A DNA stretch of 64,000 bases from a virus. Position 1 is the first letter of the stretch. Every line of letters starts with the position of its first letter. Positions 8,421 through 27,037 of this stretch are shown in pieces. Location of the stretch: positions 40,960 to 104,959 of the IMG/VR virus record IMGVR_UViG_3300022745_000021. One strand, given 5' to 3'. The translations under genes and the position numbers were made by a program. The notes beneath the pieces were generated by a model. It ran no database searches, was not told where the DNA came from, and saw only the letters and a program-made list of their open reading frames with translations.

Positions 8421-8546
8421 GGTGGTTGGTCTCCTCGTTCTTGTAGCGTAGGGGCTGGCCTGCCTGCCGCCCTACACGTGTTGCTTAGACCAACGGGGCC
8501 TACACGTCAAGCGTTTTGAGGTGCAACTGGGTTGCAACTGGTTGCA
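8421..8546 (-). promoter_or_regulatory. early expression module copy 1 (palindromes, promoter, AGGCAG hairpin, SD)
   Basis: + strand GGCCTGCCTGCC at 8457-8468; -35 TTGACG; tandem TGCAAC palindromes 8522-8546. Confidence 0.75.
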
Positions 8547-8576
8547 GTCGCCGGAAGCGCTACCCCCCCTGCCCGC

Positions 8577-9104
8577 CTACCCGGCCTTGTCCGCGTTGGC
8601 GCTGGCCCATAACCGCGCCGCGCCCATGCCCGCCCGAATGCAGCGCAGGGCGAACGTCCCGGGGGCAGCACCCTTGGCGTTGACGAACCCGGCGAACGTC
8701 CGCTGCCAGCCTTGGTCGAAGAACTTCTGGTAGGTCTCGCGCGGCCAGTCAGGGTGCCCCGCAAAGAATACATCCGCCCGTCGCTGGCGGTAGGTCGCGC
8801 CGACGTCGGGGTCCGCCTCGGATAGTACCTGTTTGATCCGGGGCATGTTGTCGCGGCTGCGCTCCGGTGTCATACCGATCGCCAGTTGCGGGGCGCGCTT
8901 GGGGGGCGGCGGGGGCGTAGGCGCCGGCAGGTTTTCCAGCGCATCCCAGATCACGCCGTGGATGACTTCGCGCAGCTGGTCACGCGCCTTGGGTACGCGC
9001 CGCCGGGTGTCGGTCATCAATCGCTGCCACAGATCGCGGCGGCCGGTGACGTCTTGGGCAACCCGGGCGTGTATCGCCGCCGCCGCCGCACGTGGATCGG
9101 TCAT
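8577..9104 (-). CDS. hypothetical protein
   Basis: Start MTDPRAAA at 9104, ATGA overlap. Confidence 0.55.
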   Translation of the reverse strand: MTDPRAAAAAIHARVAQDVTGRRDLWQRLMTDTRRRVPKARDQLREVIHGVIWDALENLPAPTPPPPPKRAPQLAIGMTPERSRDNMPRIKQVLSEADPDVGATYRQRRADVFFAGHPDWPRETYQKFFDQGWQRTFAGFVNAKGAAPGTFALRCIRAGMGAARLWASANADKAG

Positions 9105-9379
9105 GTGTCTTCGCTTGCCCCCTCGATCACGCGCCAAAGCTCCCAGATCGCGGTCTTGCGGTAGCATTGTTCGGCGGCAAGCTCGATACCGTACGCCGCC
9201 TTGAACGCGTCGCGCATCCGGGCGTGATCGTCGGCGTAGATCATGCCGTCACCGAGATCGCCCAGCGTGTCGCCCATGTCGATCGGCACGGACGCAGGCA
9301 GCGCGTACACCCGGCGGACCAGCGCCAGCAGACGCAGTTCCTCGGGGGAGTAATCGGGGCCGGATACAGGGACACTCAC
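9101..9379 (-). CDS. possible acyl-carrier-protein-like protein lacking the attachment Ser
   Basis: DTLGDLG..AFKAAYGIEL..E....TAIWEL pattern resembles ACP helices; no DS motif. Confidence 0.35.
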   Translation of the reverse strand: MSVPVSGPDYSPEELRLLALVRRVYALPASVPIDMGDTLGDLGDGMIYADDHARMRDAFKAAYGIELAAEQCYRKTAIWELWRVIEGASEDT

Positions 9380-9495
9380 GGCGTCAGCCCCCGCTTCTGG
9401 TCGAGCCGACCGCAGCACGTGCACTTGTCAGACAGGTGGTCCCAGAACACCCAGTGGTGCCGGCCTAGGAACAGGCAGCGAAATAGCTGGATCAT
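9376..9495 (-). CDS. 39-aa Cys/His peptide
   Basis: MIQLFRCLFLGRHHW..CTCCGR; fills the gap with ATGA/GTGA overlaps. Confidence 0.45.
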   Translation of the reverse strand: MIQLFRCLFLGRHHWVFWDHLSDKCTCCGRLDQKRGLTP

Positions 9496-9833
9496 GCGTC
9501 CGTCTTTCCGCCGACCTCACTCGGCATAAACGTATGCGCCACCCGGGATGCTCTGTGCAGCAAATCGTACAGCCTTGGGTCGAAGTACCGCAGCGTCGGG
9601 GGCATATGGTGCACCGCGTCCATGATCGCCCCCCGCAATGCTGCCACAAGCTGTTCGGGGTCAACCGGGGTGTCCGGTCGTTTGCGCGGCTCGCGATCCA
9701 GCGCACCCGCCGCGATCTCCGCTAGGAACTTGGCGTTGTTGGCCTCCCGCTCGGCAAGCTCGGTAGCCATGCGGGATTGGGCAAGCCCCACCTGACTGTC
9801 CAGCAAATCGGCGTATGGGTGACGATCCGTCAC
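9492..9833 (-). CDS. hypothetical protein
   Basis: ORF track, GGAGG SD. Confidence 0.6.
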   Translation of the reverse strand: MTDRHPYADLLDSQVGLAQSRMATELAEREANNAKFLAEIAAGALDREPRKRPDTPVDPEQLVAALRGAIMDAVHHMPPTLRYFDPRLYDLLHRASRVAHTFMPSEVGGKTDA

Positions 9834-10186
9834 GCGTCATCCTCCGGTGTCTTGGCGCGCACCACCAGCAAAGCGTTGTTGGCGAACACATCGACGTATT
9901 CCAGCCACAGCCCTTGCTCGGCAAGGTAGACGTGATTGGCCTCCATCACCGCGCCCGGGAGCGTGAACGGGGTGACTTCCTCGGTCCACTTCTCGCCGAC
10001 CACCATCAGCGCCGGGCGGGTGCCCTGTGACCCCTCCAACTTGCCGATCTGCACGTCCAGCGCCGGGCCGACGTTCTTGAGGGCGACGCGCGCTTTCTGT
10101 TCGGGGGTAAGCGGTAGCTTGGTAACCATGGTGCGGGTATCTCCGTTGTCTGTCCCTGACCATACCACGCACGCGGTATTACGCAA
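9830..10186 (-). CDS. hypothetical protein (start may be ATG 10129)
   Basis: ORF track; GGAG SD precedes MVTKLP. Confidence 0.55.
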   Translation of the reverse strand: MRNTACVVWSGTDNGDTRTMVTKLPLTPEQKARVALKNVGPALDVQIGKLEGSQGTRPALMVVGEKWTEEVTPFTLPGAVMEANHVYLAEQGLWLEYVDVFANNALLVVRAKTPEDDA

Positions 10187-10223
10187 GCGAAAAAGCGCGC
10201 CCTAGTTGCAACTGGTTGCAAAC

Positions 10224-10493
10224 TTACTCCCCACGCGCCACGCTGGTGGCCTGCCCCGCCGCGAAGATGCCTTCCCAGAACCGCCACTGGTCATCGCTGC
10301 CGACAAGCTCGACCTCGGGGCCGTGCCCATGGGCCGCCCGCCACAGATCGCCGATCCAGCGGCGCACCTTGAGGCGTTCCGGCGGCAACGGGGTAGGGAT
10401 CAGCAGTTGATCCAGCGGCAGGCCGGGGGTCGGCTTCGTGCGGGTGACGTCGGCAGCGCTGCCGCGCGGATGTTCATTGGTGGTAGCGGGCAT
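10224..10493 (-). CDS. hypothetical protein
   Basis: MPATTNE start with GAGGAGACC SD. Confidence 0.6.
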   Translation of the reverse strand: MPATTNEHPRGSAADVTRTKPTPGLPLDQLLIPTPLPPERLKVRRWIGDLWRAAHGHGPEVELVGSDDQWRFWEGIFAAGQATSVARGE

Positions 10494-10578
10494 AGTTATG
10501 GGTCTCCTCGGATGTGGGACTACCTTAGCAGGGCGGGGCAGCCCTCGCCACCCCTGCCCTGCCCCGGTGTCGGTCGGA

Positions 10579-10983
10579 TCACGCCGCCTTGGCGAGCTTG
10601 GCGGCTGCCGTGGTGATGCAGCCAAAGCCGAGCAGCCGCACCTCGGCGGTCGCGGCATCGACGACGACGTAGCGGTTGCTGGTGTGGCACACGACGTAGA
10701 CGGTCCGGCCGACGGTGGTGCGCACCTTGCCCAGCACGGCCGAACGCGGCACGCCGTAGCGCTCGCAGGTATTCTGGATGGTTTCCTCGACCTTGGCCGC
10801 CATGTCCACCGGGGCCATCACCCCGTTGGGGTACGCCTTGTCGAACCTGGCGCGCAGCACGATCGGGTTGGCGTCGTAGTCGCGGGCCACCTCGGTGATG
10901 GACTGGTCGAGGTCCTTGCCGTTGCGGACGTCCATGGTGACGTCGAGCAGCAGGTCGTTCCAGTTGATCGGGGTCTGGGTCAT
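10579..10983 (-). CDS. hypothetical early protein
   Basis: MTQTPINW start directly after module copy 2. Confidence 0.7.
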   Translation of the reverse strand: MTQTPINWNDLLLDVTMDVRNGKDLDQSITEVARDYDANPIVLRARFDKAYPNGVMAPVDMAAKVEETIQNTCERYGVPRSAVLGKVRTTVGRTVYVVCHTSNRYVVVDAATAEVRLLGFGCITTAAAKLAKAA

Positions 10984-11085
10984 CGTTGGTCTCCTCGGTA
11001 ATCGGTCTGGCCTGCCTGCCGTTCCGATGCCCCCTTGTACCACGCTGGCGGTGCACGTCAACAGAAAAGTGCAACCGGGTTGCAA
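10984..11085 (-). promoter_or_regulatory. early expression module copy 2
   Basis: TTGCAACCCGGTTGCA-CTTTTCTG-TTGACG-TGCACCGCCAGCGTGG-TACAAG..ATCGGAACGGC AGGCAG GCCAGACCGAT..GAGGAGACC. Confidence 0.8.
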
Positions 11086-11086
11086 A

Positions 11087-11266
11087 TTATTCGTCGCCCC
11101 CGGGCGTCGCGGCGAGTGCAGCCTGCGCGTCCTCGAAGGTGTCAGCGTGGCCCAGCACGTCGAAGACATCCTTGCGGCGGTTGCCCGGGTTCGGCCGGTG
11201 CGTGCCATAGTCGTACCCGTCCGCGCCGTCGCGGCGATTGGTGGCGGTGATGAACGTGCGAAGCAT
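11087..11266 (-). CDS. small hypothetical protein
   Basis: MLRTFIT start, GGAG SD. Confidence 0.5.
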   Translation of the reverse strand: MLRTFITATNRRDGADGYDYGTHRPNPGNRRKDVFDVLGHADTFEDAQAALAATPGGDE

Positions 11267-11297
11267 GGGGGTCACTCCCGTTGCAACTGGTTGCAGC

Positions 11298-11327
11298 AAA
11301 AAGGGGAGAGGATCGCTCCCCTCCCCC
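11298..11327 (-). terminator. intrinsic terminator
   Basis: Minus strand GGGGAGGGGAGCGATCCTCTCCCC followed by a T-run. Confidence 0.7.
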
Positions 11328-11343
11328 GGTTGGATCGGCTGGA

Positions 11344-11646
11344 TCAGGCGACGGCCAGCGCGTGGACCTGTTCTGCGGTCAGCGTGGGGGCCAGCTTCTT
11401 TTCCTCGCGGGCCAGCTTCACGAACGGCTGGAGGTACTTGTAGACGTTGTTCTTTGCCTTGAACTCGGACTTGGTCTTGCCGATCAGCGCCAGCACCTCG
11501 TCGCGCGTCATGTCAGCGGCGTCGAGCATCGCCAGCAGAATGTCCCAGCCCCGGCCGTTGTCCTTGTAGGTCTCGGCGTGGGCGACGACGACGGCGAACA
11601 GGTCGGCGGCGGGGACGATCGCGGGAACAGTGGCTTCGATGGTCAT
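11344..11646 (-). CDS. hypothetical early protein
   Basis: Follows module copy 3. Confidence 0.7.
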   Translation of the reverse strand: MTIEATVPAIVPAADLFAVVVAHAETYKDNGRGWDILLAMLDAADMTRDEVLALIGKTKSEFKAKNNVYKYLQPFVKLAREEKKLAPTLTAEQVHALAVA

Positions 11647-11741
11647 GGTAGGTCTCCTCTATCAGCGGGGCGGTGGCCTGCCTGCCAACCGCTCTTGATG
11701 TCTGATAGTACCACGCTGGCGGTACACGTCAACCGAAAAAA
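11647..11741 (-). promoter_or_regulatory. early expression module copy 3
   Basis: TTGACG-TGTACCGCCAGCGTGG-TACTAT; hairpin GCGG-T-TGGC AGGCAG GCCA-CCGC; SD GAGGAGACC. Confidence 0.8.
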
Positions 11742-11900
11742 GCACGGGCGCACCAATTATTTTCCCGGGGTCCGAAATTCAGGCGCGCGACGGCATGTCA
11801 GTTTTTCGCACCACACTGGCGGTATGATGCAGCCACGTCCACGGTATGGGTGGGCGGTATGGGTCACGGTATGGGCGTAGTTGCAACCGGGTTGCAATAC

Positions 11901-12254
11901 CTACCCTAGGTCGATCACCCGACGCATACGGGTGTCACGGGTGTGCACCCTCGGTCCACGTTCCCACTCATCCCGTCGGCAGTTCCACAGCAACTCGTCA
12001 TTGCCGTCTGGTCGCTTGACTGCGACAGCGAAGCGATAGTGGTTCAGTGCGTATACGGTCCCCTGCACAAGGTGCGAGTTGGTTGACAGGATGCGTCCCG
12101 GCCTCTCCGGGTGTGGGTAGTCCGCGAAGTACCCGCATATCACGGGTACACGGCTATGGACGATCTCTCCGTCCTTGAAGGGGTGGGTGTTCTCCGCGCC
12201 CTCCTGCTGTGGATCGTCTCCCGCGCGTTCGGTGAAGTCGAGTTGCCGTGCCAT
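11901..12254 (-). CDS. hypothetical protein
   Basis: ORF track; atypical codon usage. Confidence 0.55.
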   Translation of the reverse strand: MARQLDFTERAGDDPQQEGAENTHPFKDGEIVHSRVPVICGYFADYPHPERPGRILSTNSHLVQGTVYALNHYRFAVAVKRPDGNDELLWNCRRDEWERGPRVHTRDTRMRRVIDLG

Positions 12255-12255
12255 G

Positions 12256-12462
12256 TCAGTCCGTATCCAGCTTCCGTCTGATCCTGCGTCCTATGGTGTT
12301 ACGTGTGCTCGGTGTCCTCTGCGCCTCACTGGTTTGGCTTTCCCCCGCGCCCTGCACGTCGTTGGTCACTGCGTCAGCTTCCCCGCGCGTTTGTCGGCCC
12401 GCATGATCCCGGTAGGCGATCACGACGTTCAGCAGCGCGTTGAGCAGTCGGAATACCATCAT
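12256..12462 (-). CDS. small hypothetical protein
   Basis: ORF track, GGGAG SD. Confidence 0.5.
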   Translation of the reverse strand: MMVFRLLNALLNVVIAYRDHAGRQTRGEADAVTNDVQGAGESQTSEAQRTPSTRNTIGRRIRRKLDTD

Positions 12463-12480
12463 GGGTGATCTCCCCGCGCG

Positions 12481-12996
12481 TCAGTCAAGGTCGATGATCC
12501 TCTTGGTGCGCTTGCGGGTGTTCTCCCGCGCGTTGCGTTCGGTCTCGATCTCCGCTTTGGTCTCTCCCCGGCGCCGTTCGTAGGCGAGCAGCATCGTGCG
12601 CAAGTGCAGGTCTGCCTTCGGCCCCAGCGTCACGTGCACGTCCAGCGTCATCATGTCGCGCTCGGTTGCGATCAGTCCCTGCGCCTCTGCGTTGCGGATG
12701 GCCCACGCGCTGTCGCGGTCACGATCGGTCATACCAAACGCCACCACCACCTTGCCGTCGAGGTAGGCGTCCAGTAGGAGGTCGGCGATGTCTATCCTGT
12801 CGCGTGATCTCCCCGGTCGGCGTTCCTCGCGCAGTTGCTTGGCGGCTGCCAGCAGGCGGTGGCCTAGCTCGTTCTCCTCGCGCTGCATTGCAGCCAGTTG
12901 CAACATTTGGTCATCGGACAAGCTCGTGGAGGGCACGCCCAACGCGGCCAACCGGTCCAGTTCTGCGCGTAGGCGGCTGCGGCCTTCGGGCGACAT
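12481..12996 (-). CDS. hypothetical protein
   Basis: MSPEGRS start with TGATG coupling. Confidence 0.6.
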   Translation of the reverse strand: MSPEGRSRLRAELDRLAALGVPSTSLSDDQMLQLAAMQREENELGHRLLAAAKQLREERRPGRSRDRIDIADLLLDAYLDGKVVVAFGMTDRDRDSAWAIRNAEAQGLIATERDMMTLDVHVTLGPKADLHLRTMLLAYERRRGETKAEIETERNARENTRKRTKRIIDLD

Positions 12997-13202
12997 CAGT
13001 CTTCGTCCTCGTCTTCGGCGTTCCCCGCGCCCGGCGACACGACGGTGCAGGTGTAAACCGGCACGCGCTCGATCGTGCATTCCAGCGCGACGCCGCAACC
13101 CTCGCACACGGTCACGCTCTTGTGGTGGTCGTGGTAGCATTCCGGGCACGTGTACCGGTTGTCCCACGGGGTGTTGGTGAGTTGGTCTCCGACTGCCATC
13201 AT
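12996..13202 (-). CDS. small zinc-ribbon protein
   Basis: CPEC..CEGC motif, acidic tail. Confidence 0.55.
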   Translation of the reverse strand: MMAVGDQLTNTPWDNRYTCPECYHDHHKSVTVCEGCGVALECTIERVPVYTCTVVSPGAGNAEDEDED

Positions 13203-13513
13203 GCGTCTCCCTGCGCGGGCAGATAGTGCCGCCTGCGCATTTCCCTGCCGTACTCGATACCGGTGGCGATCCACCACGACGCCGGCATGTCGCCAAGGTA
13301 GGGGATCATTTCACTGCGGTCGTCGCTGACCCACGTGTCCCCCGCGCCCGGCTTGAGGCTGGTCGGGCGGTACTGGTTCGCCTTGCGCTCGGCAGCGTCG
13401 GTGGGGAAAAGGCCGTTGTCGAACGAGTAGTAGTGGTAGCCCTCCCCGCGCACCAGTTCGACGCACGGCTCCACGCGCTGGATGCGCTCGTTGATCTGTT
13501 TCAGCGTCGCCAT
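13199..13513 (-). CDS. hypothetical protein
   Basis: ORF track, GGAGG SD. Confidence 0.65.
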   Translation of the reverse strand: MATLKQINERIQRVEPCVELVRGEGYHYYSFDNGLFPTDAAERKANQYRPTSLKPGAGDTWVSDDRSEMIPYLGDMPASWWIATGIEYGREMRRRHYLPAQGDA

Positions 13514-13516
13514 GCG

Positions 13517-13810
13517 TCAGCCCTCCGTTACGCGGTAGCTGGCAATACCCTCGCGATCGGAGCGCGTCGAGTAGACCAGCATGAAGCGGTCGTTCGGGTC
13601 TTCGGCCGATGCGGCGACGCCGTTGGCGTAATCGCCGATCTTCATGGCCTGCCCCGCGTTCGCCGCGCGGATCGACAGGTAGACCTCACCCATCACGGGG
13701 ATGAACGCAACCTCGGGCTGGTCGGCGCCGACGAAAGCAGCGGCATCGTTGATCGCACGCTGCACGACGGTCATCACCCGGGCGGCACGGAAAAGGCTTT
13801 CGGTCTGCAT
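13517..13810 (-). CDS. hypothetical early protein
   Basis: MQTESLF start after module copy 4. Confidence 0.65.
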   Translation of the reverse strand: MQTESLFRAARVMTVVQRAINDAAAFVGADQPEVAFIPVMGEVYLSIRAANAGQAMKIGDYANGVAASAEDPNDRFMLVYSTRSDREGIASYRVTEG

Positions 13811-13920
13811 CGTTGGTCTCCTCGGTCCCGGTCGGCCTGCCTGCCTGCCCGGTGAAATCACCTTAGAACATGTGGGTTGCAACGCAAGCGAAATCTGCCG
13901 GCGTTGCAACCCGGTTGCAA
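13811..13920 (-). promoter_or_regulatory. early expression module copy 4
   Basis: Palindrome 13905-13919; hairpin CCGG..GGC AGGCAG GCC..CCGG; SD GAGGAGACC. Confidence 0.7.
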
Positions 13921-13931
13921 ATTGTTGCCCG

Positions 13932-14141
13932 TCACGCGTGGGCGTGTGACCAGCGGTAGCTGGCCTCCAACCCGGACGGCTTGCCCTCGATCATCCAGCG
14001 CCCGTCGGTGTCGGGGTGCAGGCGGTCGTTGGCCTGTGCCATGGCGCGCAAGCTGTTCGGCGCTTCCACCTCGCAGGACCGGGTTGCCCCCGCGCCCTGC
14101 GGCTGGAACGTGAAACGGTAGCGCTTGGTGGTCCCGTTCAT
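13932..14141 (-). CDS. small hypothetical protein
   Basis: MNGTTKR start, ATGA overlap. Confidence 0.55.
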   Translation of the reverse strand: MNGTTKRYRFTFQPQGAGATRSCEVEAPNSLRAMAQANDRLHPDTDGRWMIEGKPSGLEASYRWSHAHA

Positions 14142-14647: not shown

Positions 14648-14757
14648 GGTCGGTCTCCTCGGGTGGTCGGGCCTGCCTGCCCGGCCGATGTCTCTACGTA
14701 CCATGCGGGCGGTACATGTCAAGCGTGATCGACGAGAAAAGTGCAACCGGGTTGCAA
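14648..14757 (-). promoter_or_regulatory. early expression module copy 5
   Basis: Palindrome 14742-14756; TTGACA-TGTACCGCCCGCATGG-TACGTA; CGGGC AGGCAG GCCCG; SD. Confidence 0.8.
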
Positions 14758-14761
14758 AATG

Positions 14762-14977: not shown

Positions 14978-14980
14978 GGA

Positions 14981-15433: not shown

Positions 15434-15437
15434 GGTC

Positions 15438-15857: not shown

Positions 15858-15945
15858 CGTCGGTCTCCTCGTTGGGGTGGGCCTGCCTGCCCGTCCCCGT
15901 TGATGTCCCTACGTACCATGCTGGCGGTACACGTCAAGCAAAAAA
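15858..15945 (-). promoter_or_regulatory. early expression module copy 6
   Basis: TTGACG-TGTACCGCCAGCATGG-TACGTA; GGGG-AC-GGGC AGGCAG GCCC-A-CCCC; SD. Confidence 0.8.
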
Positions 15946-15975: not shown

Positions 15976-15982
15976 GTGTTGG

Positions 15983-16429: not shown

Positions 16430-16523
16430 GGTCGGTCTCCTCGGTTGCAGGGCCTGCCTGCCCTGCCCCATCACCATACCGTTATGGCGGTACGATGCAA
16501 GCGAAAAGTACAGCCCGTTGCAA
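16430..16523 (-). promoter_or_regulatory. early expression module copy 7
   Basis: TTGCAT-CGTACCGCCATAACGG-TATGGT; perfect 7-bp stem GCAGGGC AGGCAG GCCCTGC; SD. Confidence 0.8.
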
Positions 16524-18520: not shown

Positions 18521-18613
18521 GGTCTTGGTCTCCTCGGGCGGCCTGCCTGCCGCCGATGTCTCTACATACCATGCAGGGGGTACGTGTCAAGCGTCAAGTG
18601 CAGCCGGTTGCAA
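18521..18613 (-). promoter_or_regulatory. early expression module copy 8
   Basis: TTGACA-CGTACCCCCTGCATGG-TATGTA; GGCGGC AGGCAG GCCGCC; SD. Confidence 0.8.
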
Positions 18614-19893: not shown

Positions 19894-19996
19894 CGAATGT
19901 CTCCTCGGTGGTCGGTCCGGCCTGCCTGCCGTTCCGATGTCTCTTAGTACCACGCTGGCGGTACGTTGCAAGCGAAAAAGTGCAACCGGGTTGCAA
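19894..19996 (-). promoter_or_regulatory. early expression module copy 9
   Basis: Palindrome 19981-19995; TTGCAA-CGTACCGCCAGCGTGG-TACTAA; TCGGAACGGC AGGCAG GCCGGACCGA; SD. Confidence 0.8.
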
Positions 19997-20000
19997 AATG

Positions 20001-20914: not shown

Positions 20915-21000
20915 GGTATGGTCTCCTCGTATCGGGCCGGGACTGCCTTCCCTGCCGATGACCTTTCATACCACGCCGGGGGTACGGTGCAAGCGAAAAG
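20915..21000 (-). promoter_or_regulatory. early expression module copy 10 (covariant hairpin)
   Basis: TTGCAC-CGTACCCCCGGCGTGG-TATGAA; GGGA AGGCAG TCCC (20939-20952), same loop with a compensatory closing pair. Confidence 0.75.
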
Positions 21001-21011
21001 TGCGGGCGGCC

Positions 21012-21254: not shown

Positions 21255-21264
21255 GGGTATACTC

Positions 21265-21480: not shown

Positions 21481-21488
21481 ACGGCGCG

Positions 21489-21860
21489 TCAGTGCACGTC
21501 CTGACACATGATTGTCCGGGCACGGTGTCGCACATTGCTGAACGCATCGTCTAGTTGTTCGCGGGTCAGCCCCGACGACGACACGAAAACAACCGGGCGG
21601 GGCGGCGGGGTGATCCGCTTCTCGCATACCCATGCCAGCGCCAGCAGGGCGACGGCGACCGGCAGCAGCAGCGCGGCGAGCAGCCAGTCGTGATGCCCGA
21701 AGGCAAAGCCGGCGACGGCGCCGGTGACGAGCGTCAGCCCGCAAGCGACGCTGGTCAGTGCGGCGTAGCCCCGGTGGTAGTACTCGCCGGTGTGCTTGTC
21801 CTGCGCGTAGCCATTGACATAGGCGCGGGCTATAGGGATCAGGTAGTGTAGCGGCAACAT
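21489..21860 (-). CDS. membrane protein
   Basis: MLPLHYL start, GAGGAG SD, two hydrophobic segments. Confidence 0.6.
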   Translation of the reverse strand: MLPLHYLIPIARAYVNGYAQDKHTGEYYHRGYAALTSVACGLTLVTGAVAGFAFGHHDWLLAALLLPVAVALLALAWVCEKRITPPPRPVVFVSSSGLTREQLDDAFSNVRHRARTIMCQDVH

Positions 21861-21985
21861 GTGGGTGTCTCCTCGTCTCTGCCAAGAACACATGTAGCCT
21901 ACACATTAGCGGGCGTCAAGCGGCTTGGTTCCAGCCCGTGCTACGATTTTCCCGGCTCGCGCTTTACCGTTGCAACTGGTTGCAC

Positions 21986-22249
21986 CTATTCCGGCCTCGG
22001 CCCGGGGTCGCGGCGCTCCCCGCCCTGCCGGATCGTCTGTCCCGCCTCGGTCTGCGTGATGTGCGCCGCCCGGACGATGCGCGACTGGCGGATTGCGAAG
22101 ATCGTGCCGCACACCGCGTCGGCGACGTCCTTCGAGTTGTGGACGAACACGCCTGCGGCCAGCGCGAAGTTTTCAGTCCCCGGCACCGTCAGGTCGAACA
22201 CCGGAACGGGCTGCGAGGTAGTTATCCGCGTCACGCGAGTGCATTTCAT
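21986..22249 (-). CDS. terL: split intein C-fragment (38 aa) fused to TerL C-terminal extein (49 aa)
   Basis: MKCTRVTRITTSQPVPVFDLTVPGTENFALAAGVFVHN|SKDVADAVCG: intein block F (VFDLTV..TENF), block G (VHN), Ser+1; GGAGACC SD; ATGA overlap with the HNH gene stop. Confidence 0.9.
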   Translation of the reverse strand: MKCTRVTRITTSQPVPVFDLTVPGTENFALAAGVFVHNSKDVADAVCGTIFAIRQSRIVRAAHITQTEAGQTIRQGGERRDPGPRPE

Positions 22250-23055
22250 GGTAGGTCTCCCCCCTTGGCAGGAGCGTGTTTGCGTCGGCCGGGGTACGGA
22301 ACAGCCGCCTCCTCCCATACCCGTCGTGCGTGCTCGGCGGCTTCGGCCTCGTCATCGAAGTACCCCTTCGTCACCTTGCGGAAGATCACGCGCCATCGCC
22401 CTTGCGGCGCGAACCACGACACGCCGGTCCACTCGGACGACTTGACCGCTCGCCTCGTACACGTGTTGAAGTTGGGGATGACGAAGTCTTCGGGCAAGGG
22501 GTCGTCGGGGAAGTTAAGCTCCCGGCCCTGACCCGGGTAACGCGCCCGCGCCACGCGGTCGTAGACCTTGGCCGCGATGGTGATGTCTCGGTATTGCCCG
22601 TAGTGGACCGTGCCCACTGTCACGCGCCAGAACCCGGCTTCCTTGGCGGGCTTTACCCCGCGATAGCCGTGCGGCGGCGCGTCTCCCATGTAGCCACGGA
22701 TTGCCACGCGTGTCCTCCCGCAGTTGACGGCGTCCGGCAGGTGGCGAAGGTTTCGCCGCCGGCAGTCAAGTCGGTCGTGGTTTTCATGGTCAATATGCAT
22801 ACCCGGCGGTGCCCTGCCCGCGATCAGGCTGTGCAGCGATCGGTTTTCCGTGCGCTTGCAGCTGACCCGGCTGTGCCCCTGTCGGTGCCGGATGCTGTAC
22901 GCGTAGCCGTTGTTCAGGTGTAGCGCCAGCCCGTCCACCAAGGGCACGTCGGCATAGTCGATCTTGGCCCACACCCACGTGCCCTTGGGTCCGCGCACCG
23001 GAACCTCGACGTAGTCGGGCAAAAACCGAAAGGGCGGCCAGTCGATGTAGGTCAC
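22246..23055 (-). CDS. HNH homing endonuclease with AP2-like DNA-binding domains
   Basis: LHSLIAG..IDHENHDRLDCRRRNLR HNH motif; GYRGV..WRV..AAKVYD and WTGVSW..RWRV..GYFDDEAEAA AP2-like repeats; GAGGAG SD. Confidence 0.85.
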   Translation of the reverse strand: MTYIDWPPFRFLPDYVEVPVRGPKGTWVWAKIDYADVPLVDGLALHLNNGYAYSIRHRQGHSRVSCKRTENRSLHSLIAGRAPPGMHIDHENHDRLDCRRRNLRHLPDAVNCGRTRVAIRGYMGDAPPHGYRGVKPAKEAGFWRVTVGTVHYGQYRDITIAAKVYDRVARARYPGQGRELNFPDDPLPEDFVIPNFNTCTRRAVKSSEWTGVSWFAPQGRWRVIFRKVTKGYFDDEAEAAEHARRVWEEAAVPYPGRRKHAPAKGGDLP

Positions 23056-23096
23056 GGGTTGTTCTCCTCACCGACTATATCGTACCACCCCCCTAG

Positions 23097-25238
23097 TTAG
23101 TCAAGCCCTTGAATATCATCCGTTTCGCCCAAATGCTGCGCTTCCTTGTACGTGCCGTCCGTCAGCAGGAAGCGGTGGTCAGGCGTGCAACGGATTACCG
23201 CGCCGTTTTCCAGTTCGACCTCGACCAGATCGCAGGTGCGCATGGTCTCGCGCGGCTTGCAGCCGGTTGCAATCCGGGCCTCACCGTCAAACGTCACGAT
23301 CTCCACGTCGGCGCCGGTCGCTGCCAGTTCGTCGAACCGCACGTCCCTGCCATCAGCGAGGCGAACTAGCGTATCGCCCGTGAAGCAGCCGTTCGGCGGG
23401 TGATCGACCTTCTGTTTCTCGGTGTTCAGTTCCAGCTGGGTCAGTTCGACCTTGAGTTGTTCGCTGTCGAGCAGCGCCAGCCGGTCCTCGTACATCGACC
23501 GGCGAAATTCCTCGTACGGCTCGGTGGTGCGGTCCATGGACAGCGCCCACGACTTGATCCCGGTCTTGTTGATCGCCTGCCTGCTTTCCGCGCTCTGGAA
23601 GCCGTCGTAGGTGATCGCGTACAGGTTGAAGCCATAGTAGGTGGACAGCAGCATGACCCACCGGCGGACCTCGGCGATGTCCAGTTCGCGCTGCGGACTT
23701 GGCTTGATCGCGCAGGCCATGACGTTGGTGATGACCGGCGCGCGCTCGATCACCCCGTCGCGCAGCACGTTCTGCAAACCCTCCAGACGCGACACGGCGA
23801 CGCCGCAACAGTCGCCGGTGAGCGACAAGTCGATATGCGCGAAGTGGGGGCGCTGCTTGATGCTGGCGGGCAGGCTCTCCAGATATTGCCCCTGCCACTG
23901 CGGCATCCCCCGCGTCGCCAGTTCGGCGTAAGTGTCGGTGCAGTAGGGCCGCGTCTTGCGCTCGGTGCGGCGCTGGATCGCCTCGATGATCTTGTGGCGC
24001 TGGCCGATGAACGGGCTGATCGCGTCGGTGGCGACGCCGACGATGTCGCGCAGCGCGCCCTCGGGATCGACGATGAAGCGTTCGCGGTACTCGATCGGCA
24101 GCGTCTCGATCTTGGCGCGCTCGGGGTAGTCGATCCCCGGCATCATGCCATTCTCGATCACCTTGGTCCGGTACTCGTCCGTGCCCACGACGATCTGGAA
24201 CTTCTCGCCCGAGAAGCGGTCCTGCGGCACCACCTCGTACTGTTTGCGGCGCAGGCACAGGATGCCTTGCAGGTTGTGCTTCTTGACCTCGTCCATGCGC
24301 TGGTCGAGGAAGTCGGACTTGTAGCGGGTGGACGACAGGATGCACAGCACCCCCAAGGTGTAGCCCCGCGTCGTGAACGAACGGCCCTGACGACGGGCGA
24401 TGTTGTCGTAGACCTCGCGGGCCTGATCGAACTTGCCCCCGCCGCCGCGCGAACCCACGGCCTGCTTGGAGTTTTCGATGATCCGCATGAAGTTGACTTC
24501 GTCGAGCATCGACCCGGCGATGGCCTGACCAAGGATCGCCTCGATGTTGGCGAGCGCGGGCACGATGGTGACGCCCGAGTTGAAGATCAGTTCGGTCTCG
24601 CGCTGCTTGTCCCACGTCAGCCACCGCTGCACGAACGGCATCGACGTGAACATTTGCCGGAACGGGCGGTAGATGACGCGCCGGGTGATCGCCTGACTGA
24701 CGCTCTGGAACATGAACACGATCGGCGTGATCGCGGCGAGGTTGTACATCAGCTGCGGGGTGTTGAAGCACTCGAACAGGTAGGCTTGGTGCGCGATGGT
24801 GACGTAGCTCAAGGTCGTCTTGCCGGTGCCGGTCGCGCCGCCGAGCAACGCCTGCCGGACCGGTGCGGCGCCGGTGAAGACGTCGGGGTTCATCATGCGG
24901 ATGTCACGGCGCAGCGCGGGCCAGATTTCCTGAATGTTGCCAAGGAACTCGGGGCTTTCGCAGAACTCGTCGATGGTGACGGGCACGCGTTTCATGAAGG
25001 CGAGGTGGCGCAGCTTGTGCAGGTTGTCGCGTTCGCTGGCTTCCTCCAGCGCGTGGGCGTAGATTTTCGCCATGCGGCTGTGCGGACCGTGCAGGCCCTC
25101 GGCCTCGGACTGCAACCGCTCGGCCTCGTTGAGCAGGACATGGCGGACGCGTTCCCGGCGCTCGTTGCGCACGTCCTCGATCCGCGAGCGCAGGCGCGGG
25201 GCGACTTGGCTGTCGGGGTAGCGGGCAGCGTCGGTCAT
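23097..25238 (-). CDS. terL: terminase large subunit N-terminal part fused to split intein N-fragment (96 aa, 23387-23100)
   Basis: Walker A GGATGTGKT, Walker B MLDEVNF, RNase-H HIDLSLTGD, ITYDGFQS, KVDHPPNG, then CFTGDTLV..IRCTPDHRFL (intein blocks A/B) and stop. Confidence 0.88.
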   Translation of the reverse strand: MTDAARYPDSQVAPRLRSRIEDVRNERRERVRHVLLNEAERLQSEAEGLHGPHSRMAKIYAHALEEASERDNLHKLRHLAFMKRVPVTIDEFCESPEFLGNIQEIWPALRRDIRMMNPDVFTGAAPVRQALLGGATGTGKTTLSYVTIAHQAYLFECFNTPQLMYNLAAITPIVFMFQSVSQAITRRVIYRPFRQMFTSMPFVQRWLTWDKQRETELIFNSGVTIVPALANIEAILGQAIAGSMLDEVNFMRIIENSKQAVGSRGGGGKFDQAREVYDNIARRQGRSFTTRGYTLGVLCILSSTRYKSDFLDQRMDEVKKHNLQGILCLRRKQYEVVPQDRFSGEKFQIVVGTDEYRTKVIENGMMPGIDYPERAKIETLPIEYRERFIVDPEGALRDIVGVATDAISPFIGQRHKIIEAIQRRTERKTRPYCTDTYAELATRGMPQWQGQYLESLPASIKQRPHFAHIDLSLTGDCCGVAVSRLEGLQNVLRDGVIERAPVITNVMACAIKPSPQRELDIAEVRRWVMLLSTYYGFNLYAITYDGFQSAESRQAINKTGIKSWALSMDRTTEPYEEFRRSMYEDRLALLDSEQLKVELTQLELNTEKQKVDHPPNGCFTGDTLVRLADGRDVRFDELAATGADVEIVTFDGEARIATGCKPRETMRTCDLVEVELENGAVIRCTPDHRFLLTDGTYKEAQHLGETDDIQGLD

Positions 25239-26143
25239 GCGCGCGTCCTCACCCGTGCCGGCGGCAAGCCGGGGCCATCGTCGATCCGGGTATCCCAGCC
25301 GCCCGCGCTGTCCTCGGTGTCCGCGAAATCGTCGCCGTCGGGGTCAAGCGTGTCACCCGGCTCCGGTTCGGCCGGGATGCCGCCGGTGTCGCCCAGCGAC
25401 CGTGCCGCCGGGTCCTGCCAGCCGCCCCCTGCCCCGTCACCGCCCGGGCCGCCGCCGGGATCGCCGGGGATGTCGATGGCGTCCTCGTCGCCGATGTCGT
25501 CGATCGGGCCGTGCGCGGCGTCCACCAGCGCGTCGATGACGCCGTTGATCGCCCCGGACAGCGCGCGGACGGCGGTCACGCTCTCGTCCTCGTTGCTGGC
25601 TTGCAGCGACACGCCCCGGAAGCCGCCGACCTTCTCGATGAACTCGAACTCGTTGCGCATGACGGTCATAAGGCTGTCGCGGGCGCGGTGCTTGTCCACC
25701 TCGGACGAGCCGCCGCGCTGGAGCGCGAAGAACGCGCTTTCGCGGAGCGAGCGGAACATTTGCACGTGCTCGGCGATGACCCCCATCCCGTCGAAGCGGG
25801 TGACGGCGGCCTCGCGCATTTCCTTGCGCGCCTCGGTCAGCAGGGCGCGGGTCCACGTCAGGCCGAACTGGAAGGTCTTGGCGATGTCCTCGTCGCGCAC
25901 CCCGGCCATCGCCATGCGCAGCATTTGCTGTTTGGCGTAGACGCGTGCGGACGAACCACCCTCGACCGCCTTGATCTGGCGGTAGCGCACGGCGGGTTCG
26001 GCCGAGAGGCTATCGCCGTAGATGAACGTCCCCTCGGCGGTGGGTGCCGGTTCAGGCTGCGCGGCAGCGACGTTGTCGTCCACGGCGATCACCCGCCGGG
26101 TGCGGGGCCGGGCCGGCGGGAGGGGTCGAGGTGCCTGCGCCAT
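25235..26143 (-). CDS. probable terminase small subunit (HTH-like region, acidic Gly-rich tail)
   Basis: Directly upstream of and coupled to terL; GVRDEDIAKTFQ HTH-like segment. Confidence 0.5.
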   Translation of the reverse strand: MAQAPRPLPPARPRTRRVIAVDDNVAAAQPEPAPTAEGTFIYGDSLSAEPAVRYRQIKAVEGGSSARVYAKQQMLRMAMAGVRDEDIAKTFQFGLTWTRALLTEARKEMREAAVTRFDGMGVIAEHVQMFRSLRESAFFALQRGGSSEVDKHRARDSLMTVMRNEFEFIEKVGGFRGVSLQASNEDESVTAVRALSGAINGVIDALVDAAHGPIDDIGDEDAIDIPGDPGGGPGGDGAGGGWQDPAARSLGDTGGIPAEPEPGDTLDPDGDDFADTEDSAGGWDTRIDDGPGLPPARVRTRA

Positions 26144-26305
26144 GGGTCAATCCCATGCGAACGGGGGAAGATAGATCACGGGCGCGCTCCCTCATACCCC
26201 TTGACGGGGATTGGCTGGACCCTACACATGTAGGGAGGCCGTTAGGGAAGTGCAACGCCGTAACTCGCTGCAACCAGTTGCAACCGGCGGGAACGCGCCG
26301 GAAAA

Positions 26306-26647
26306 TCAGGCGAGGATTTTGCCCGGCGCGGTCTGGCCCGACGTGCGCACGGTCGTGCCCCGGGCGCGCAGTTCGTCGGCGACGCGCTGGATCGTGGAGA
26401 TACCCACGCCGTACTTGTCGCGCAGCTTGGCGTACGACAGCCCGCCCTTGGTCAGGTCAGCGGCGATGGCCGCGCGGGTGTCGTCGGGGACGGTCGGCTG
26501 GCCGTACTTGGCCGCGCGTTCCTTCCAGAAGGCATCGGCGATCTGCGAGGCGAGGGCATGGGCGTCTTCGGGCGAGTGCACGCCGAGCAGGCCGTTATAG
26601 ACCGCGTCCCATACTTCCTGTCGGATGATCGTCTGCTTTGCCACCAT
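26306..26647 (-). CDS. HTH DNA-binding protein
   Basis: LSYAKLRDKYGVGISTIQRV helix-turn-helix; own TTGACA promoter near 26700. Confidence 0.65.
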   Translation of the reverse strand: MVAKQTIIRQEVWDAVYNGLLGVHSPEDAHALASQIADAFWKERAAKYGQPTVPDDTRAAIAADLTKGGLSYAKLRDKYGVGISTIQRVADELRARGTTVRTSGQTAPGKILA

Positions 26648-26804
26648 GCCCTCGTCTGATACCGGGGGCTTGGTATGTGCCGTTGACGTGGTACTGTCAA
26701 GGGGCAAAATGGGGTAAGGCATGGTAGCGCATAGGGTCGGGGGTGAGGTGGGCTGGGTCGCAGGTGCCCCCCTCACCCCCTTCGTGGGTACGCCGGGACG
26801 GGGG

Positions 26805-26957
26805 TCAGGCATACGCACGATCTCGCTTGAACTCGCGGGCCTCGCAGCGGGCCATGTCACGGGCCTTGGCGTTCGCGCGGCGCTCGCGGGTGCGAACCCG
26901 GGCGGCCTGCGCTTCACCGTCGATGACGAGGACGACGTTCTGGAAAGTCTTGCTCAT
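26805..26957 (-). CDS. 50-aa basic peptide
   Basis: MSKTFQN start after module copy 11; downstream hairpin 26740-26780. Confidence 0.6.
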   Translation of the reverse strand: MSKTFQNVVLVIDGEAQAARVRTRERRANAKARDMARCEAREFKRDRAYA

Positions 26958-27037
26958 GGGTGGTCTCCTTGTTTGCCGGGCCTGCCTGCCCTGCCCCATG
27001 ACCATACCGGTTTGGCGGTACGGTGCAAGCGAAAAAA
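26958..27037 (-). promoter_or_regulatory. early expression module copy 11
   Basis: TTGCAC-CGTACCGCCAAACCGG-TATGGT; GGGC AGGCAG GCCC; SD AGGAGACC. Confidence 0.75.

What the first reader, a model, noticed from the sequence alone, without database searches (positions are those of the whole stretch)
8421..27037. Eleven copies of a 5'-UTR hairpin with invariant AGGCAG loop and covarying stems, each just before a GAGGAGACC SD: candidate new cis-regulatory RNA
Seen in sequence (minus-strand sense; stem | loop | stem): about 8457 GGC|AGGCAG|GCC inside GUAGGG/CCCUAC; 11009 AUCGG..GGC|AGGCAG|GCC..CCGAU; 11675 GCGG.UGGC|AGGCAG|GCCA.CCGC; 13834 CCGG..GGC|AGGCAG|GCC..CCGG; 14670 CGGGC|AGGCAG|GCCCG; 15880 GGGG..GGGC|AGGCAG|GCCC.CCCC; 16451 GCAGGGC|AGGCAG|GCCCUGC; 18540 GGCGGC|AGGCAG|GCCGCC; 19919 UCGG..CGGC|AGGCAG|GCCG..CCGA; 20939 GGGA|AGGCAG|UCCC; 26979 GGGC|AGGCAG|GCCC. 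Stem sequences differ while pairing and loop are kept, including a compensatory closing pair at 20939. This is the signature of selection on structure. Each copy sits between the predicted transcription start and the SD. Inference: the loop is bound by a protein (antiterminator, translational regulator or RNA-stability factor) that coordinates about 11 early transcription units. I do not recognise it as a described motif.
Basis: partly seen in the sequence, partly recalled or inferred. Interest (0 to 1): 0.85.

Follow-up and report, generated by a model that had tools for sequence, protein, structure and literature searches.

The report
Phage leader hairpins with AGGCAG loop
Eleven transcription units of an uncultured 105-kb freshwater phage carry the same small hairpin, with variable but always pairing stems and an invariant AGGCAG loop, just upstream of the ribosome-binding site; it is a real, selected and uncatalogued leader signal, but what reads it is still unknown.

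Summary
All 11 hairpins are at the stated places, on the minus strand, between a sigma-70-like promoter and a GAGGAGAC(C) Shine-Dalgarno. The loop is invariant and the stems covary, including one clean C-G to A-U change of the closing pair. The flanks outside the invariant 12-mer GGCAGGCAGGCC add pairing beyond composition-matched shuffles in every copy (Stouffer Z -5.7). There is no Rfam match. A covariance model finds only these 11 copies, and none in the nearest known phages (Rhizobium phage L338C group, about 52% portal identity). No closer relative could be fetched, so all evidence comes from paralogs in one genome.

The hairpin is one block of a roughly 100-bp cassette that heads blocks of ORFan genes. 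The cassette resembles T4 PeSL cassettes and Aca-regulated 5'UTR hairpins. GGCAG (or GGUAG) also occurs unpaired at the predicted +1 of the phage's other promoters, so the loop displays a phage-wide leader signature.

My best reading is a 5'-proximal RNA hairpin that is read by a trans factor. One candidate is a phage sRNA with an anti-SD loop and a CUGCC loop; a protein is equally possible. "Early" timing and protein binding are unproven. This scan has noted the same kind of element, with other loops, in other phages.

The parts
8446..8477 (-). Leader hairpin 1: GUAGGG.GGC|AGGCAG|GCC...CCCUAC; heads a 32-aa ORF (8322-8420) and the genes downstream
11001..11028 (-). Leader hairpin 2: AUCGG...GGC|AGGCAG|GCC...CCGAU; heads the 134-aa ORF 10579-10983
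11670..11692 (-). Leader hairpin 3: GCGGU.GGC|AGGCAG|GCCACCGC; heads the 100-aa ORF 11344-11646
13826..13855 (-). Leader hairpin 4: CCGG...GGC|AGGCAG|GCC..CCGG, with a tandem AGGCAGGCAG; heads the 97-aa ORF 13517-13810
14665..14686 (-). Leader hairpin 5: CGGGC|AGGCAG|GCCCG; heads the 169-aa ORF 14138-14647
15874..15898 (-). Leader hairpin 6: GGGG..GGGC|AGGCAG|GCCC.CCCC; heads the 139-aa ORF 15438-15857
16443..16469 (-). Leader hairpin 7: GCAGGGC|AGGCAG|GCCCUGC (7 bp); heads the 148-aa ORF 15983-16429
18534..18556 (-). Leader hairpin 8: (UC)GGCGGC|AGGCAG|GCCGCC; it ends 1 nt before the SD and heads the 206-aa ORF 17900-18520
19912..19937 (-). Leader hairpin 9: UCGG..CGGC|AGGCAG|GCCG..CCGA; heads the 195-aa ORF 19306-19893 (phrog_37844, function unknown)
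20931..20959 (-). Leader hairpin 10: GGGA|AGGCAG|UCCC, the copy with the compensated closing pair (A-U); heads the 95-aa ORF 20627-20914
26970..26998 (-). Leader hairpin 11: GGGC|AGGCAG|GCCC; its SD is AAGGAGACC. It heads a 50-aa Arg-rich ORF (26805-26957), which lies just upstream of the HTH regulator gene 26306-26644
19894..19995 (-). One complete cassette, shown as an example. In order: TGCAACCCGGTTGCA plus a T-run (terminator-like), -35 CTTGCA, spacer palindrome GTACC-N8-GGTAC, weak -10 TACTAA, conserved GACATCGG (predicted start), the hairpin, then GAGGAGAC. The other ten copies follow the same plan.

Best explanation
The eleven elements are transcribed RNA hairpins: a GC stem of 3-7 bp, usually extended by a second helix, closed on an invariant AGGCAG hexaloop. 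Each is one block of a roughly 100-bp cassette that has been copied in front of eleven blocks of ORFan genes. The cassette consists of a terminator-like palindrome, a -35 box, a spacer palindrome RTACC-N8-GGTAY, a weak -10 box, the hairpin and a GAGGAGACC Shine-Dalgarno.

The hairpin starts 0-8 nt from the predicted 5' end and ends 12-25 nt before the start codon. I propose two jobs for it.

(1) As a 5'-proximal stem-loop it shields the message from 5'-end-dependent decay. This is inferred from established knowledge of RNase E and RppH.

(2) Its loop displays, in single-stranded form, the GGCAG signature that the phage's other leaders carry unpaired at their predicted first bases. One trans-acting factor could therefore read all these leaders next to the ribosome-binding site and tune their translation or stability together.

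Candidates are a phage sRNA (genome 33775-33903, outside the window) whose two apical loops are UCUCCU (anti-SD) and CUGCCAAU (anti-GGCAG), or an RNA-binding protein such as a dual DNA/RNA-binding HTH of the Aca type.

Shown here: the structure, its selection and its position. Inferred: transcription of the hairpin, its stabilising effect, and the existence and identity of a reader.
For: - Structure and selection. All 11 leader copies fold as a hexaloop hairpin, against 2 of 36 other AGGCAG in the genome. Four stem pairs change on both sides, and the covariation score is 0.218 against 0.062 in shuffles. The flanks outside the conserved 12-mer add pairing in all 11 copies (Stouffer Z -5.7). Variable arms around a conserved centre are the signature of a hairpin, not of a dimer operator.
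- One orientation only. All copies lie on the coding strand, in intergenic leaders.
- Variable spacing. The hairpin lies 16-24 nt from the spacer palindrome, 7-23 nt from the SD, and 12-25 nt from the start codon (read). This fits an autonomous RNA module and argues against a DNA site phased with RNA polymerase.
- The conserved GACATCGG puts a C/A start 6-7 nt after the -10 box, and the outer stem (UCGG) begins at +2 in several copies.
- Phage-wide signature. About 20 of roughly 24 promoter-proximal GAGGAGAC leaders carry GGCAG, against 0.11 expected per 55-nt window. Three or four of the rest carry GGUAG, which can still pair with CUGCC through a G-U wobble. In the hairpin-less class the motif begins 6-9 nt after the -10 box.
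- The sRNA candidate. Its 9-nt GGUCUCCUC is the only complement of GAGGAGACC on that strand in the genome. The anti-SD core UCUCCU and the second CUGCC are unpaired with probability of about 1.0 in two apical loops.
- A published precedent exists for promoter inverted repeats combined with 5'UTR hairpins that co-regulate several small-gene operons: Aca2 and Aca1 (PMC13551039).
Against: - All the evidence is from paralogs within one genome. No relative carrying the element could be fetched, and the nearest known phages lack it.
- The top three stem pairs never vary apart from one compensated change, so a 12-bp DNA site is not excluded.
- The transcription starts are predictions. The -10 boxes are weak, and only 1 of 11 passes a strict sigma-70 scan.
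- The link to the sRNA is statistically thin. CUGCC is common in this GC-rich genome (about 2.5 per kb in the gaps between called genes), loop-loop pairing would span only 5 bp, and duplex and cofold energies do not separate hairpin leaders from other SD-bearing leaders. The sRNA's promoter and terminator do not pass the simple consensus scan.
- No recognisable RNA-binding protein was found.
Confidence: 0.45

Rival explanations
1. Processive antitermination of the lambda N/boxB type. The nascent hairpin is a nut-like site that loads a phage protein onto RNA polymerase, so that transcription reads through the terminator-like TGCAAC-N3-GTTGCA plus T-run elements between cassettes.
For: It is a short GC-stem hairpin with an invariant purine-rich loop close to the promoter. 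Terminator-like hairpins with T-runs precede several cassettes. The 50-aa ORF behind hairpin 11 has an Arg-rich stretch RTRERRANAKAR, which recalls N-type arginine-rich motifs (the resemblance is from memory and is only a lead).
Against: - Every unit has its own promoter, so read-through is not needed to express it.
- There are 11 sites rather than the usual 2.
- No boxA-like element is present, and the loop is not a GNRA-like pentaloop.
- No NusG-like protein was found.
- Arg-rich windows of equal density occur in five other ORFs, and the 50-aa ORF has no PDB relative.
Confidence: 0.1
2. A purely structural leader element with no specific reader. It would act as a 5' stabiliser and as an insulator that keeps the GC-rich leader from pairing with the SD. 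On this view the loop is conserved only because the cassettes are young copies or are homogenised by recombination.
For: The hairpin lies 0-8 nt from the predicted 5' end. The cassettes are clearly paralogous and resemble PeSL-type recombination modules.
Against: The rest of the cassette has diverged strongly: mean column identity is 51%, with length changes on both sides of the hairpin. The loop is nevertheless 11/11 identical, and the one copy with a changed closing pair changed both sides. The same GGCAG is kept in leaders that have no hairpin. A mere stabiliser does not need a fixed loop.
Confidence: 0.2
3. A DNA-level site. The asymmetric 12-bp GGCAGGCAGGCC would be bound as duplex DNA by a phage regulator just downstream of each promoter, in one orientation. 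That would make it a stoperator-like roadblock or operator, as in mycobacteriophage L5 (from my own knowledge of Brown et al. 1997).
For: Ten identical 12-mers all lie in one orientation relative to transcription and all in short intergenic spaces. The top three stem pairs are invariant. The phage has at least one HTH regulator with its own operator family.
Against: The variable flanks keep their complementarity (Z -5.7), which a duplex site does not need. The one variant of the 12-mer changes two symmetric positions in a compensatory way. Spacing to the promoter varies from 16 to 24 bp with no helical phase. The hairpin-less leaders keep only GGCAG.
Confidence: 0.13
4. A target for RNA processing. 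A host or phage endoribonuclease would cut in or beside the loop, giving mature 5' ends that begin with GGCAG, the same as the primary 5' ends predicted for the hairpin-less promoter class.
For: GGCAG begins 6-9 nt after the -10 box, at the predicted +1, in the other promoter class. Cleavage in the loop would therefore unify the two classes.
Against: There is no evidence of cleavage and no RNA data. No candidate nuclease with such specificity was identified. The stem is too short for RNase III.
Confidence: 0.07

Closest known systems
PeSL (promoter-early stem-loop) cassettes of T4-type phages (Arbiol et al. 2010, PMC2839356; Comeau et al. 2014, PMC4122927)
   Same: Both are repeated composite regulatory cassettes of about 100 bp: stop codon or terminator, sigma-70-like promoter, stem-loop, SD and start codon. 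Both flank small ORFan genes in a plastic part of the genome. [quoted passage not shown]
   Different: The PeSL stem-loop lies in or next to the promoter, has no conserved loop, and is read as a terminator or attenuator. Here an additional hairpin lies downstream of the predicted start. It has an invariant loop and no U-tract.
Aca2 / Aca1 control of anti-CRISPR operons through a promoter inverted repeat plus 5'UTR RNA hairpins (PMC13551039 and work cited there)
   Same: Both combine a promoter inverted repeat with a conserved, covarying hairpin in the 5'UTR next to the RBS. Both stand in front of several small accessory-gene operons and have an HTH regulator gene nearby. Here the HTH gene is at 26306-26644, directly after cassette 11.
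   Different: The local HTH is only weakly TrpR-like and was not tested as an Aca family member. The hairpin does not resemble a half-site of the promoter palindrome (GTACC), whereas my recollection is that the Aca2 RNA hairpins mimic its DNA site. No anti-defence function is known for the cassette genes.
Lambda/P22 nut boxB hairpins bound by N protein
   Same: Both are small GC-stem hairpins with an invariant purine-rich loop in promoter-proximal RNA, read sequence-specifically.
   Different: This element has a hexaloop AGGCAG rather than a GNRA-like pentaloop, and no boxA. There are 11 sites, each with its own promoter. No N homologue and no NusG-type factor were found.
5'-terminal stabilising stem-loops (the E. 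coli ompA 5'UTR type; from my own knowledge of Emory, Bouvet and Belasco 1992)
   Same: Both are stem-loops within a few nucleotides of the (here predicted) 5' end, upstream of the SD.
   Different: Stabilisers need no fixed loop sequence. Here the loop is the most conserved part.
Phage P1/P7 c4 antisense RNA, which has two loops pairing with two leader elements, one covering the RBS (from my own knowledge)
   Same: The candidate phage sRNA shows an anti-SD sequence and an anti-GGCAG sequence in two apical loops, in the order required for antiparallel pairing with the leaders.
   Different: The candidate is a stand-alone gene far from its presumed targets, and it would address about 25 leaders. 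The pairing is untested and statistically weak for the GGCAG part.
Mycobacteriophage L5 stoperators (from my own knowledge)
   Same: Both involve many identical asymmetric sites of about 12-13 bp, in one orientation relative to transcription, in short intergenic spaces.
   Different: Stoperators are duplex DNA sites without covarying flanking arms. Here the flanks keep hairpin complementarity.

Membership tests
Any Rfam 15 family | Match to a curated covariance model | tested here: not met
   There were no matches at gathering score over the whole window and none at E<=1 over 8000-27500.
Lambda-type nut site (boxA + boxB, N protein) | boxB: a 5-bp stem with a GNRA-like pentaloop (GAAAA/GACAA) | tested here: not met
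   The loop is the hexamer AGGCAG in all 11 copies. The boxB consensus is taken from my own knowledge.
Lambda-type nut site (boxA + boxB, N protein) | A boxA element a few nucleotides upstream, and an N-type arginine-rich protein | tested here: inconclusive
   The upstream conserved block is GACATCGG, which is not boxA-like. One 50-aa Arg-rich ORF carries RERRA, but it is not unique and has no relatives in the PDB.
PeSL cassettes | [quoted passage not shown] | tested here: met
   Eleven to 13 homologous cassettes are present. The genes they head have no Pfam or PHROG function.
PeSL cassettes | The stem-loop sits within or beside the promoter and acts as a terminator or attenuator | tested here: not met
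   The AGGCAG hairpin lies 16-24 nt downstream of the spacer palindrome, after the predicted start, and has no U-tract. Other cassette elements (the spacer palindrome and the TGCAAC hairpin) do fit this feature.
Aca-type dual DNA/RNA control | A promoter inverted repeat plus a conserved 5'UTR hairpin next to the RBS | tested here: met
   RTACC-N8-GGTAY lies in the spacer of 8 of the 11 cassettes, and the hairpin ends 12-25 nt before the start codon.
Aca-type dual DNA/RNA control | An Aca-family HTH that binds both the DNA repeat and the RNA hairpin | not testable with these tools
   The local HTH is only weakly TrpR-like. Binding can only be tested at the bench.
CsrA/Rsm target leaders | GGA in a hairpin loop plus GGA at the SD, with a CsrA protein present | tested here: not met
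   The loop has GGC, not GGA. No CsrA domain was found in the phage. The host is unknown.
N4-type virion-RNA-polymerase hairpin promoters | A giant virion RNA polymerase gene | tested here: not met
   The 3449-aa ORF is a GpJ-like tail tip protein (PF24801, PF13550), not an RNA polymerase.

The most novel reading that the evidence does not exclude
The AGGCAG loop and the GAGGAGACC Shine-Dalgarno together form a two-part address shared by about 25 phage leaders. A single phage sRNA reads it through two apical loops (CUGCC and UCUCCU). In the hairpin class the contact would begin as a loop-loop kiss. The result would be a regulon-wide, RNA-only translational switch for the phage's accessory genes. 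A similar anti-SD loop matched to a different extended SD in Rhizobium phage L338C hints that this design is shared by the family.
Probability: 0.15. Interest if true: 0.8.

Novelty: new variant of a known kind. Interest (0 to 1): 0.55.

Why it matters
If a single factor reads this loop, one small RNA tag would coordinate eleven units, about 35 ORFan genes, of a large phage after transcription. That would add a layer of phage gene control beyond promoters. It would also give a handle, through pull-down with the hairpin, for finding a new RNA-binding protein or sRNA partner.

Earlier notes of this scan describe the same architecture (promoter cassette, leader hairpin with a fixed loop, SD) with other loop sequences in unrelated phages. 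The general phenomenon may therefore be widespread and under-described. This case is a clean one, with eleven copies and a visible candidate partner.

It also matters for annotation. The cassettes mark transcription-unit boundaries and probable recombination joints in the phage's plastic region.

Tried and rejected
**N4-like hairpin promoters.** Rejected. The giant ORF is a tail tip protein J homologue, and the phage is a siphovirus related to Rhizobium phage L338C.

**Searches for relatives that carry the element.**
- A loop+SD pattern in IMG/VR gave 42 single chance hits.
- A promoter-palindrome+SD pattern gave chance hits only: 1 in IMG/VR and 2 in JGI metagenomes.
- The 12-mer+SD pattern in GTDB genomes gave 120 or more single chance hits, none with cassette hallmarks.
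- The portal protein, and an alignment of a cassette-gene protein, found no loci in IMG/VR.
- A cassette searched by blastn against INPHARED phages gave only short chance matches.
- One IMG/VR scan was wasted on a mistyped spacer (NN instead of NNN). It still turned up contigs rich in TGCAAC-N3-GTTGCA, but none had AGGCAG hairpins.

**Closer homologues of the cassette gene 19306-19893.** Homologues at 60-62% identity exist in Logan assemblies.

**Sequencing runs.** No RNA holder is listed. A second freshwater run holds identical fragments of the same phage and shows no variants at the hairpins.

**sRNA-leader energies.** Cofold and duplexfold energies do not separate hairpin leaders from other SD-bearing leaders. 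Kissing interactions cannot be modelled with these tools.

**Simple consensus scan.** It does not flag the sRNA's promoter or terminator.

**RNA-binding and elongation-factor domains in the phage.** NusG, CsrA, CSD and ProQ were not found. Pfam and PHROG scans of about 39 ORFs around the cassettes gave almost no functions.

**Other ideas considered and dropped.**
- An RfaH ops-like non-template DNA hairpin: the extended stems are too long for a transcription bubble, and there is no NusG paralog.
- A sigma-54 reading of TGCAAC-N3-GTTGCA: there is no GG at -24.
- Pairing of the loop with 16S rRNA: the host is unknown and I recall no accessible complement.

Full report
**Context**

The window is bases 40960-104959 of a 104,959-bp IMG/VR virus record. 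It has 66% G+C and comes from a freshwater metagenome. Nearly all genes are on the minus strand.

The phage is a siphovirus. It has a 3449-aa GpJ-like tail tip protein, a tape measure protein, a tail tube protein and a portal, plus a family-A DNA polymerase and an AAA+ ATPase. The nearest known phages are Rhizobium phages RHph_I4, vB_RleS_L338C and P11VFA, at 51-52% portal identity. Rhodobacter RcTiptonus-type phages follow at 42%. Gene order is shared with L338C.

The finding lies in the ORFan-rich stretch between the ParB/PAPS-reductase module and the structural genes. It surrounds the terminase region.

**The observation**

AGGCAG as a bare hexamer is not enriched in the window (33 found, 30.3 expected). 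Each lies in an intergenic leader 7-23 nt upstream of GAGGAGAC(C) or, once, AAGGAGACC.

- All eleven have at least 3 consecutive flanking pairs and fold with the hexamer as a hexaloop. Of the other 36 AGGCAG in the genome, two fold that way.
- Ten share the 12-mer GGCAGGCAGGCC, always on the minus strand.
- The eleventh has GGGA|AGGCAG|UCCC, a compensated change of the closing pair.
- On a loop-anchored alignment, 77.9% of stem cells pair (65.7% in shuffles). Four of seven pairs change on both sides. The covariation score is 0.218 against 0.062 (0 of 500 shuffles reach it), and slid controls stay at or below 0.065.
- These are paralogs and the core 12-mer is nearly fixed, so I asked separately whether the variable flanks contribute. 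With the core held fixed, native flanks fold better than shuffled flanks in all eleven copies (z -1.0 to -2.7, Stouffer Z -5.7).

Variable, complementary arms around a fixed centre are what a hairpin shows. A dimer operator shows the reverse.

**What the hairpin belongs to**

Aligning the regions shows a cassette of about 100 bp (example 19894-19995). Its blocks, in order, are:

- a palindrome TGCAAC-N3-GTTGCA followed by a T-run, which the scanner flags as terminator-like;
- a -35 box, CTTGAC or CTTGCA;
- a spacer palindrome RTACC-N8-GGTAY, present in 8 of the 11 cassettes (16 copies genome-wide);
- a weak -10 box (TACTAA, TACGTA, TATGGT);
- a conserved GACATCGG that offers a C/A start 6-7 nt after the -10 box;
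- the hairpin;
- the SD and the start codon.

Outside the conserved blocks the copies have diverged to about 51% column identity, with length changes. Only one of the promoters passes a strict sigma-70 consensus scan, so the transcription starts remain predictions.

From those predictions the hairpin begins 0-8 nt from the 5' end. Its 3' edge lies 12-25 nt before the start codon. Its distance to the spacer palindrome (16-24 nt) and to the SD (7-23 nt) varies without helical phase.

The genes behind the cassettes are ORFans. PHROGs names only two families, both of unknown function, and Pfam names nothing. Together the eleven units cover about 35 small genes.

One degenerate copy lies outside the window at genome 35103. 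It has an 8-nt loop AAGGCAGC and ATT in place of ATG. An AGGCAG leader without a hairpin lies at genome 35776.

**A wider signature**

I looked at every GAGGAGAC on the coding strand, 28 sites in all. About 20 of the roughly 24 sites that follow a promoter-like sequence carry GGCAG in the leader. Three carry GGTAG. A further GGTAG leader (genome 22087) has a different SD.

In a second promoter class (for example TTGACG-17-TATACT) there is no hairpin. There GGCAG starts 6-9 nt after the -10 box, at the predicted first transcribed bases, and the SD follows 3-5 nt later (GGCAGCAA-GAGGAGAC).

GGCAG is expected in only about 11% of 55-nt windows. GGTAG is rare in the genome, with 32 copies on the strand. 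The loop therefore displays, in single-stranded form, a motif that other leaders of this phage carry unpaired at their 5' ends. The only variant seen, C to U, would keep pairing with a G.

**A candidate partner**

A TTGACA-17-TAGTTT promoter-like sequence and a 15-bp hairpin followed by UUUUU bracket about 125 nt with no ORF.

- The RNA contains GGUCUCCUC. This is the only complement of GAGGAGACC on that strand in the genome.
- Three bases later comes CUGCCGG, and further on a second CUGCC.
- In the ensemble, the anti-SD core UCUCCU and the second CUGCC are unpaired with probability of about 1.0, in two apical loops.
- The contiguous stretch is almost the exact antisense of the hairpin-less leaders. 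CCGGCAG-N3-5-GAGGAGACC gives 7 plus 8-10 matches at genome 38394 and 89017.
- For the hairpin class, only a two-site or loop-loop contact is possible (GGCAG with CUGCC, 5 bp).

This is suggestive but weak, for four reasons. CUGCC is common, at about 2.5 per kb in the gaps between called genes. The energy models I could run do not separate the leader classes. The simple scanner does not flag the promoter or the terminator. No relative is available for a co-variation test.

One supporting hint comes from L338C. Its extended SD is GGAGAACCAC, present in 20 copies. It has a non-coding stretch (42174-42320) whose terminator-type hairpin loop reads GGUGGUUCUCC, the complement of its own SD.

**Relatives and databases**

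- Rfam gives nothing at gathering score or at E<=1.
- A covariance model built from the eleven copies scores them at 25-39.5 bits. The next best site in the genome scores 16.4 bits. It finds nothing significant in L338C or RHph_I4.
- L338C has the same family design: 22 copies of a promoter TTGACAAAGGATCGGTTC...TTAGAT, often preceded by TGCAAC-N3-GTTGCA, with short leaders. It has no AGGCAG hairpin.
- Pattern and protein scans of IMG/VR, JGI metagenomes, GTDB genomes and INPHARED found no other carrier.
- No RNA-seq run holds the phage. A second run holds identical fragments only.

The element is therefore specific to this lineage as far as can be seen, and all evidence for selection is intragenomic.

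**Mechanism**

*Best reading (0.45).* The element is a transcribed 5'-proximal hairpin that protects the 5' end and presents GGCAG to a trans-acting reader beside the ribosome-binding site, so that the leaders are controlled together. The structure, its selection, its orientation and its flexible placement are shown.

*Who reads it is open.* The sRNA is one candidate. The other is a protein, for example an HTH with dual DNA/RNA binding as published for Aca2 and Aca1. Those proteins combine a promoter inverted repeat with covarying 5'UTR hairpins and are predicted to co-regulate several neighbouring small-gene operons (PMC13551039).

The cassette has just that layout, and an HTH gene (26306-26644) follows cassette 11. 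However, the HTH is only weakly TrpR-like, and the hairpin does not resemble the palindrome's half-site. No NusG, CsrA, cold-shock or ProQ domain is encoded.

*Rivals.*
- A structure-only stabiliser or insulator (0.2). This is weakened by the fixed loop and by the GGCAG in hairpin-less leaders.
- A duplex DNA site of the stoperator type (0.13). This is weakened by the covarying flanks, the compensated variant and the unphased spacing.
- N/boxB-like antitermination (0.1). Against it: each unit has its own promoter, there is no boxA, and there is no N or NusG-type protein. A 50-aa Arg-rich ORF with RERRA behind hairpin 11 is a weak lead.
- A processing site (0.07).

**Comparison and novelty**

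As a cassette, this element works like the PeSLs of T4-type phages (PMC2839356, PMC4122927). It adds a post-start hairpin with a fixed loop. As a leader operator, it resembles the Aca 5'UTR hairpins and boxB. It is not a member of any catalogued RNA family.

Earlier notes of this scan report the same architecture with other loops (ACHGN, AGCGAG, CAGCAC, GUAGGA, AACGGA) in unrelated phages. I did not test those notes. They suggest that the kind recurs while this loop, its copy number and its candidate partner are new. I rate it a new variant of a known kind, with interest 0.55. It is real and clean, it is supported in only one genome, and its reader is unknown.

Noticed in passing
outside the window: genome (G000:C1) 33775-33903, minus strand = L053:5775-5903: A candidate stand-alone sRNA of about 125 nt lies between a TTGACA-17-TAGTTT promoter-like site and a 15-bp hairpin followed by UUUUU. 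Its apical loop 1 reads UCUCCU, within GGUCUCCUC, the only complement of GAGGAGACC on that strand. Its apical loop 2 reads CUGCCAAU. The contiguous stretch is almost the exact antisense of the hairpin-less leaders (CCGGCAG-N3-5-GAGGAGACC).
   Followed up: partly
L054 (Rhizobium phage vB_RleS_L338C, NC_023502.1) 42174-42320: This non-coding stretch after the AAA+ ATPase gene folds into hairpins. The loop of its terminator-type hairpin reads GGUGGUUCUCC, which is complementary to this phage's own extended SD GGAGAACCACC (20 copies). It is a possible family-wide anti-SD RNA that co-varies with the SD.
   Followed up: partly
window, many sites, e.g. 19981-19995, 14742-14756, 11070-11084; also L054-L056, L065, L067, L077, L082: The palindrome TGCAAC-N3-GTTGCA is often tandem, as GTTGCAACCAGTTGCAAC. 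GTTGCAAC occurs 37 times in this genome, usually just upstream of promoters and sometimes followed by a T-run. The same motif is frequent in L338C and in several unrelated-looking IMG/VR contigs. It could be a weak terminator or a protein-binding site.
   Followed up: partly
genome-wide leaders, e.g. window 21867, 38603, 48058, 56671, 59190 (SD positions); outside the window genome 38394, 39243: In a second promoter class without the hairpin, GGCAG (three or four times GGTAG) begins 6-9 nt after the -10 box, at the predicted first transcribed bases, and the SD follows 3-5 nt later.
   Followed up: partly
window 26805-26957, minus strand: A 50-aa ORF directly behind hairpin 11 has an Arg-rich helix-like stretch, AARVRTRERRANAKARDMAR, that recalls N-type arginine-rich RNA-binding motifs. 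Its coding bias is acceptable (GC3 0.80-0.82). It has no PDB or PHROG relatives, and five other ORFs have equally Arg-dense windows.
   Followed up: partly
window 26306-26644, minus strand, and its promoter at about 26650-26720: A small HTH protein, weakly TrpR-like (Pfam E 1e-5, below the cut-off), has its own promoter carrying the RTACC-N8-GGTAY dyad family. It is the likely regulator of the 16 dyad promoters.
   Followed up: partly
outside the window: genome 35080-35130, minus strand: A decayed cassette. It keeps the promoter, the dyad, a hairpin with the 8-nt loop AAGGCAGC and GAGGAGAC, but has ATT where the other cassettes have ATG, and no ORF of 25 aa or more opens within 15 nt after the SD.
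   Followed up: no
window, e.g. 26215-26235, 62700-62757, 33640-33680: Another repeated palindrome family, CCTACATGTGTAGG (the word AACACGTGTAGG occurs 8 times), is found in other intergenic regions and is distinct from the dyad and from the hairpin.
   Followed up: no
L054-L056 (L338C), 22 sites such as 8533, 10920, 42328: L338C carries 22 copies of a highly conserved promoter, TTGACAAAGGATCGGTTCYAAGTTAGATT, including a conserved spacer. Repeated promoter cassettes are therefore a family trait, while the AGGCAG hairpin is not.
   Followed up: yes
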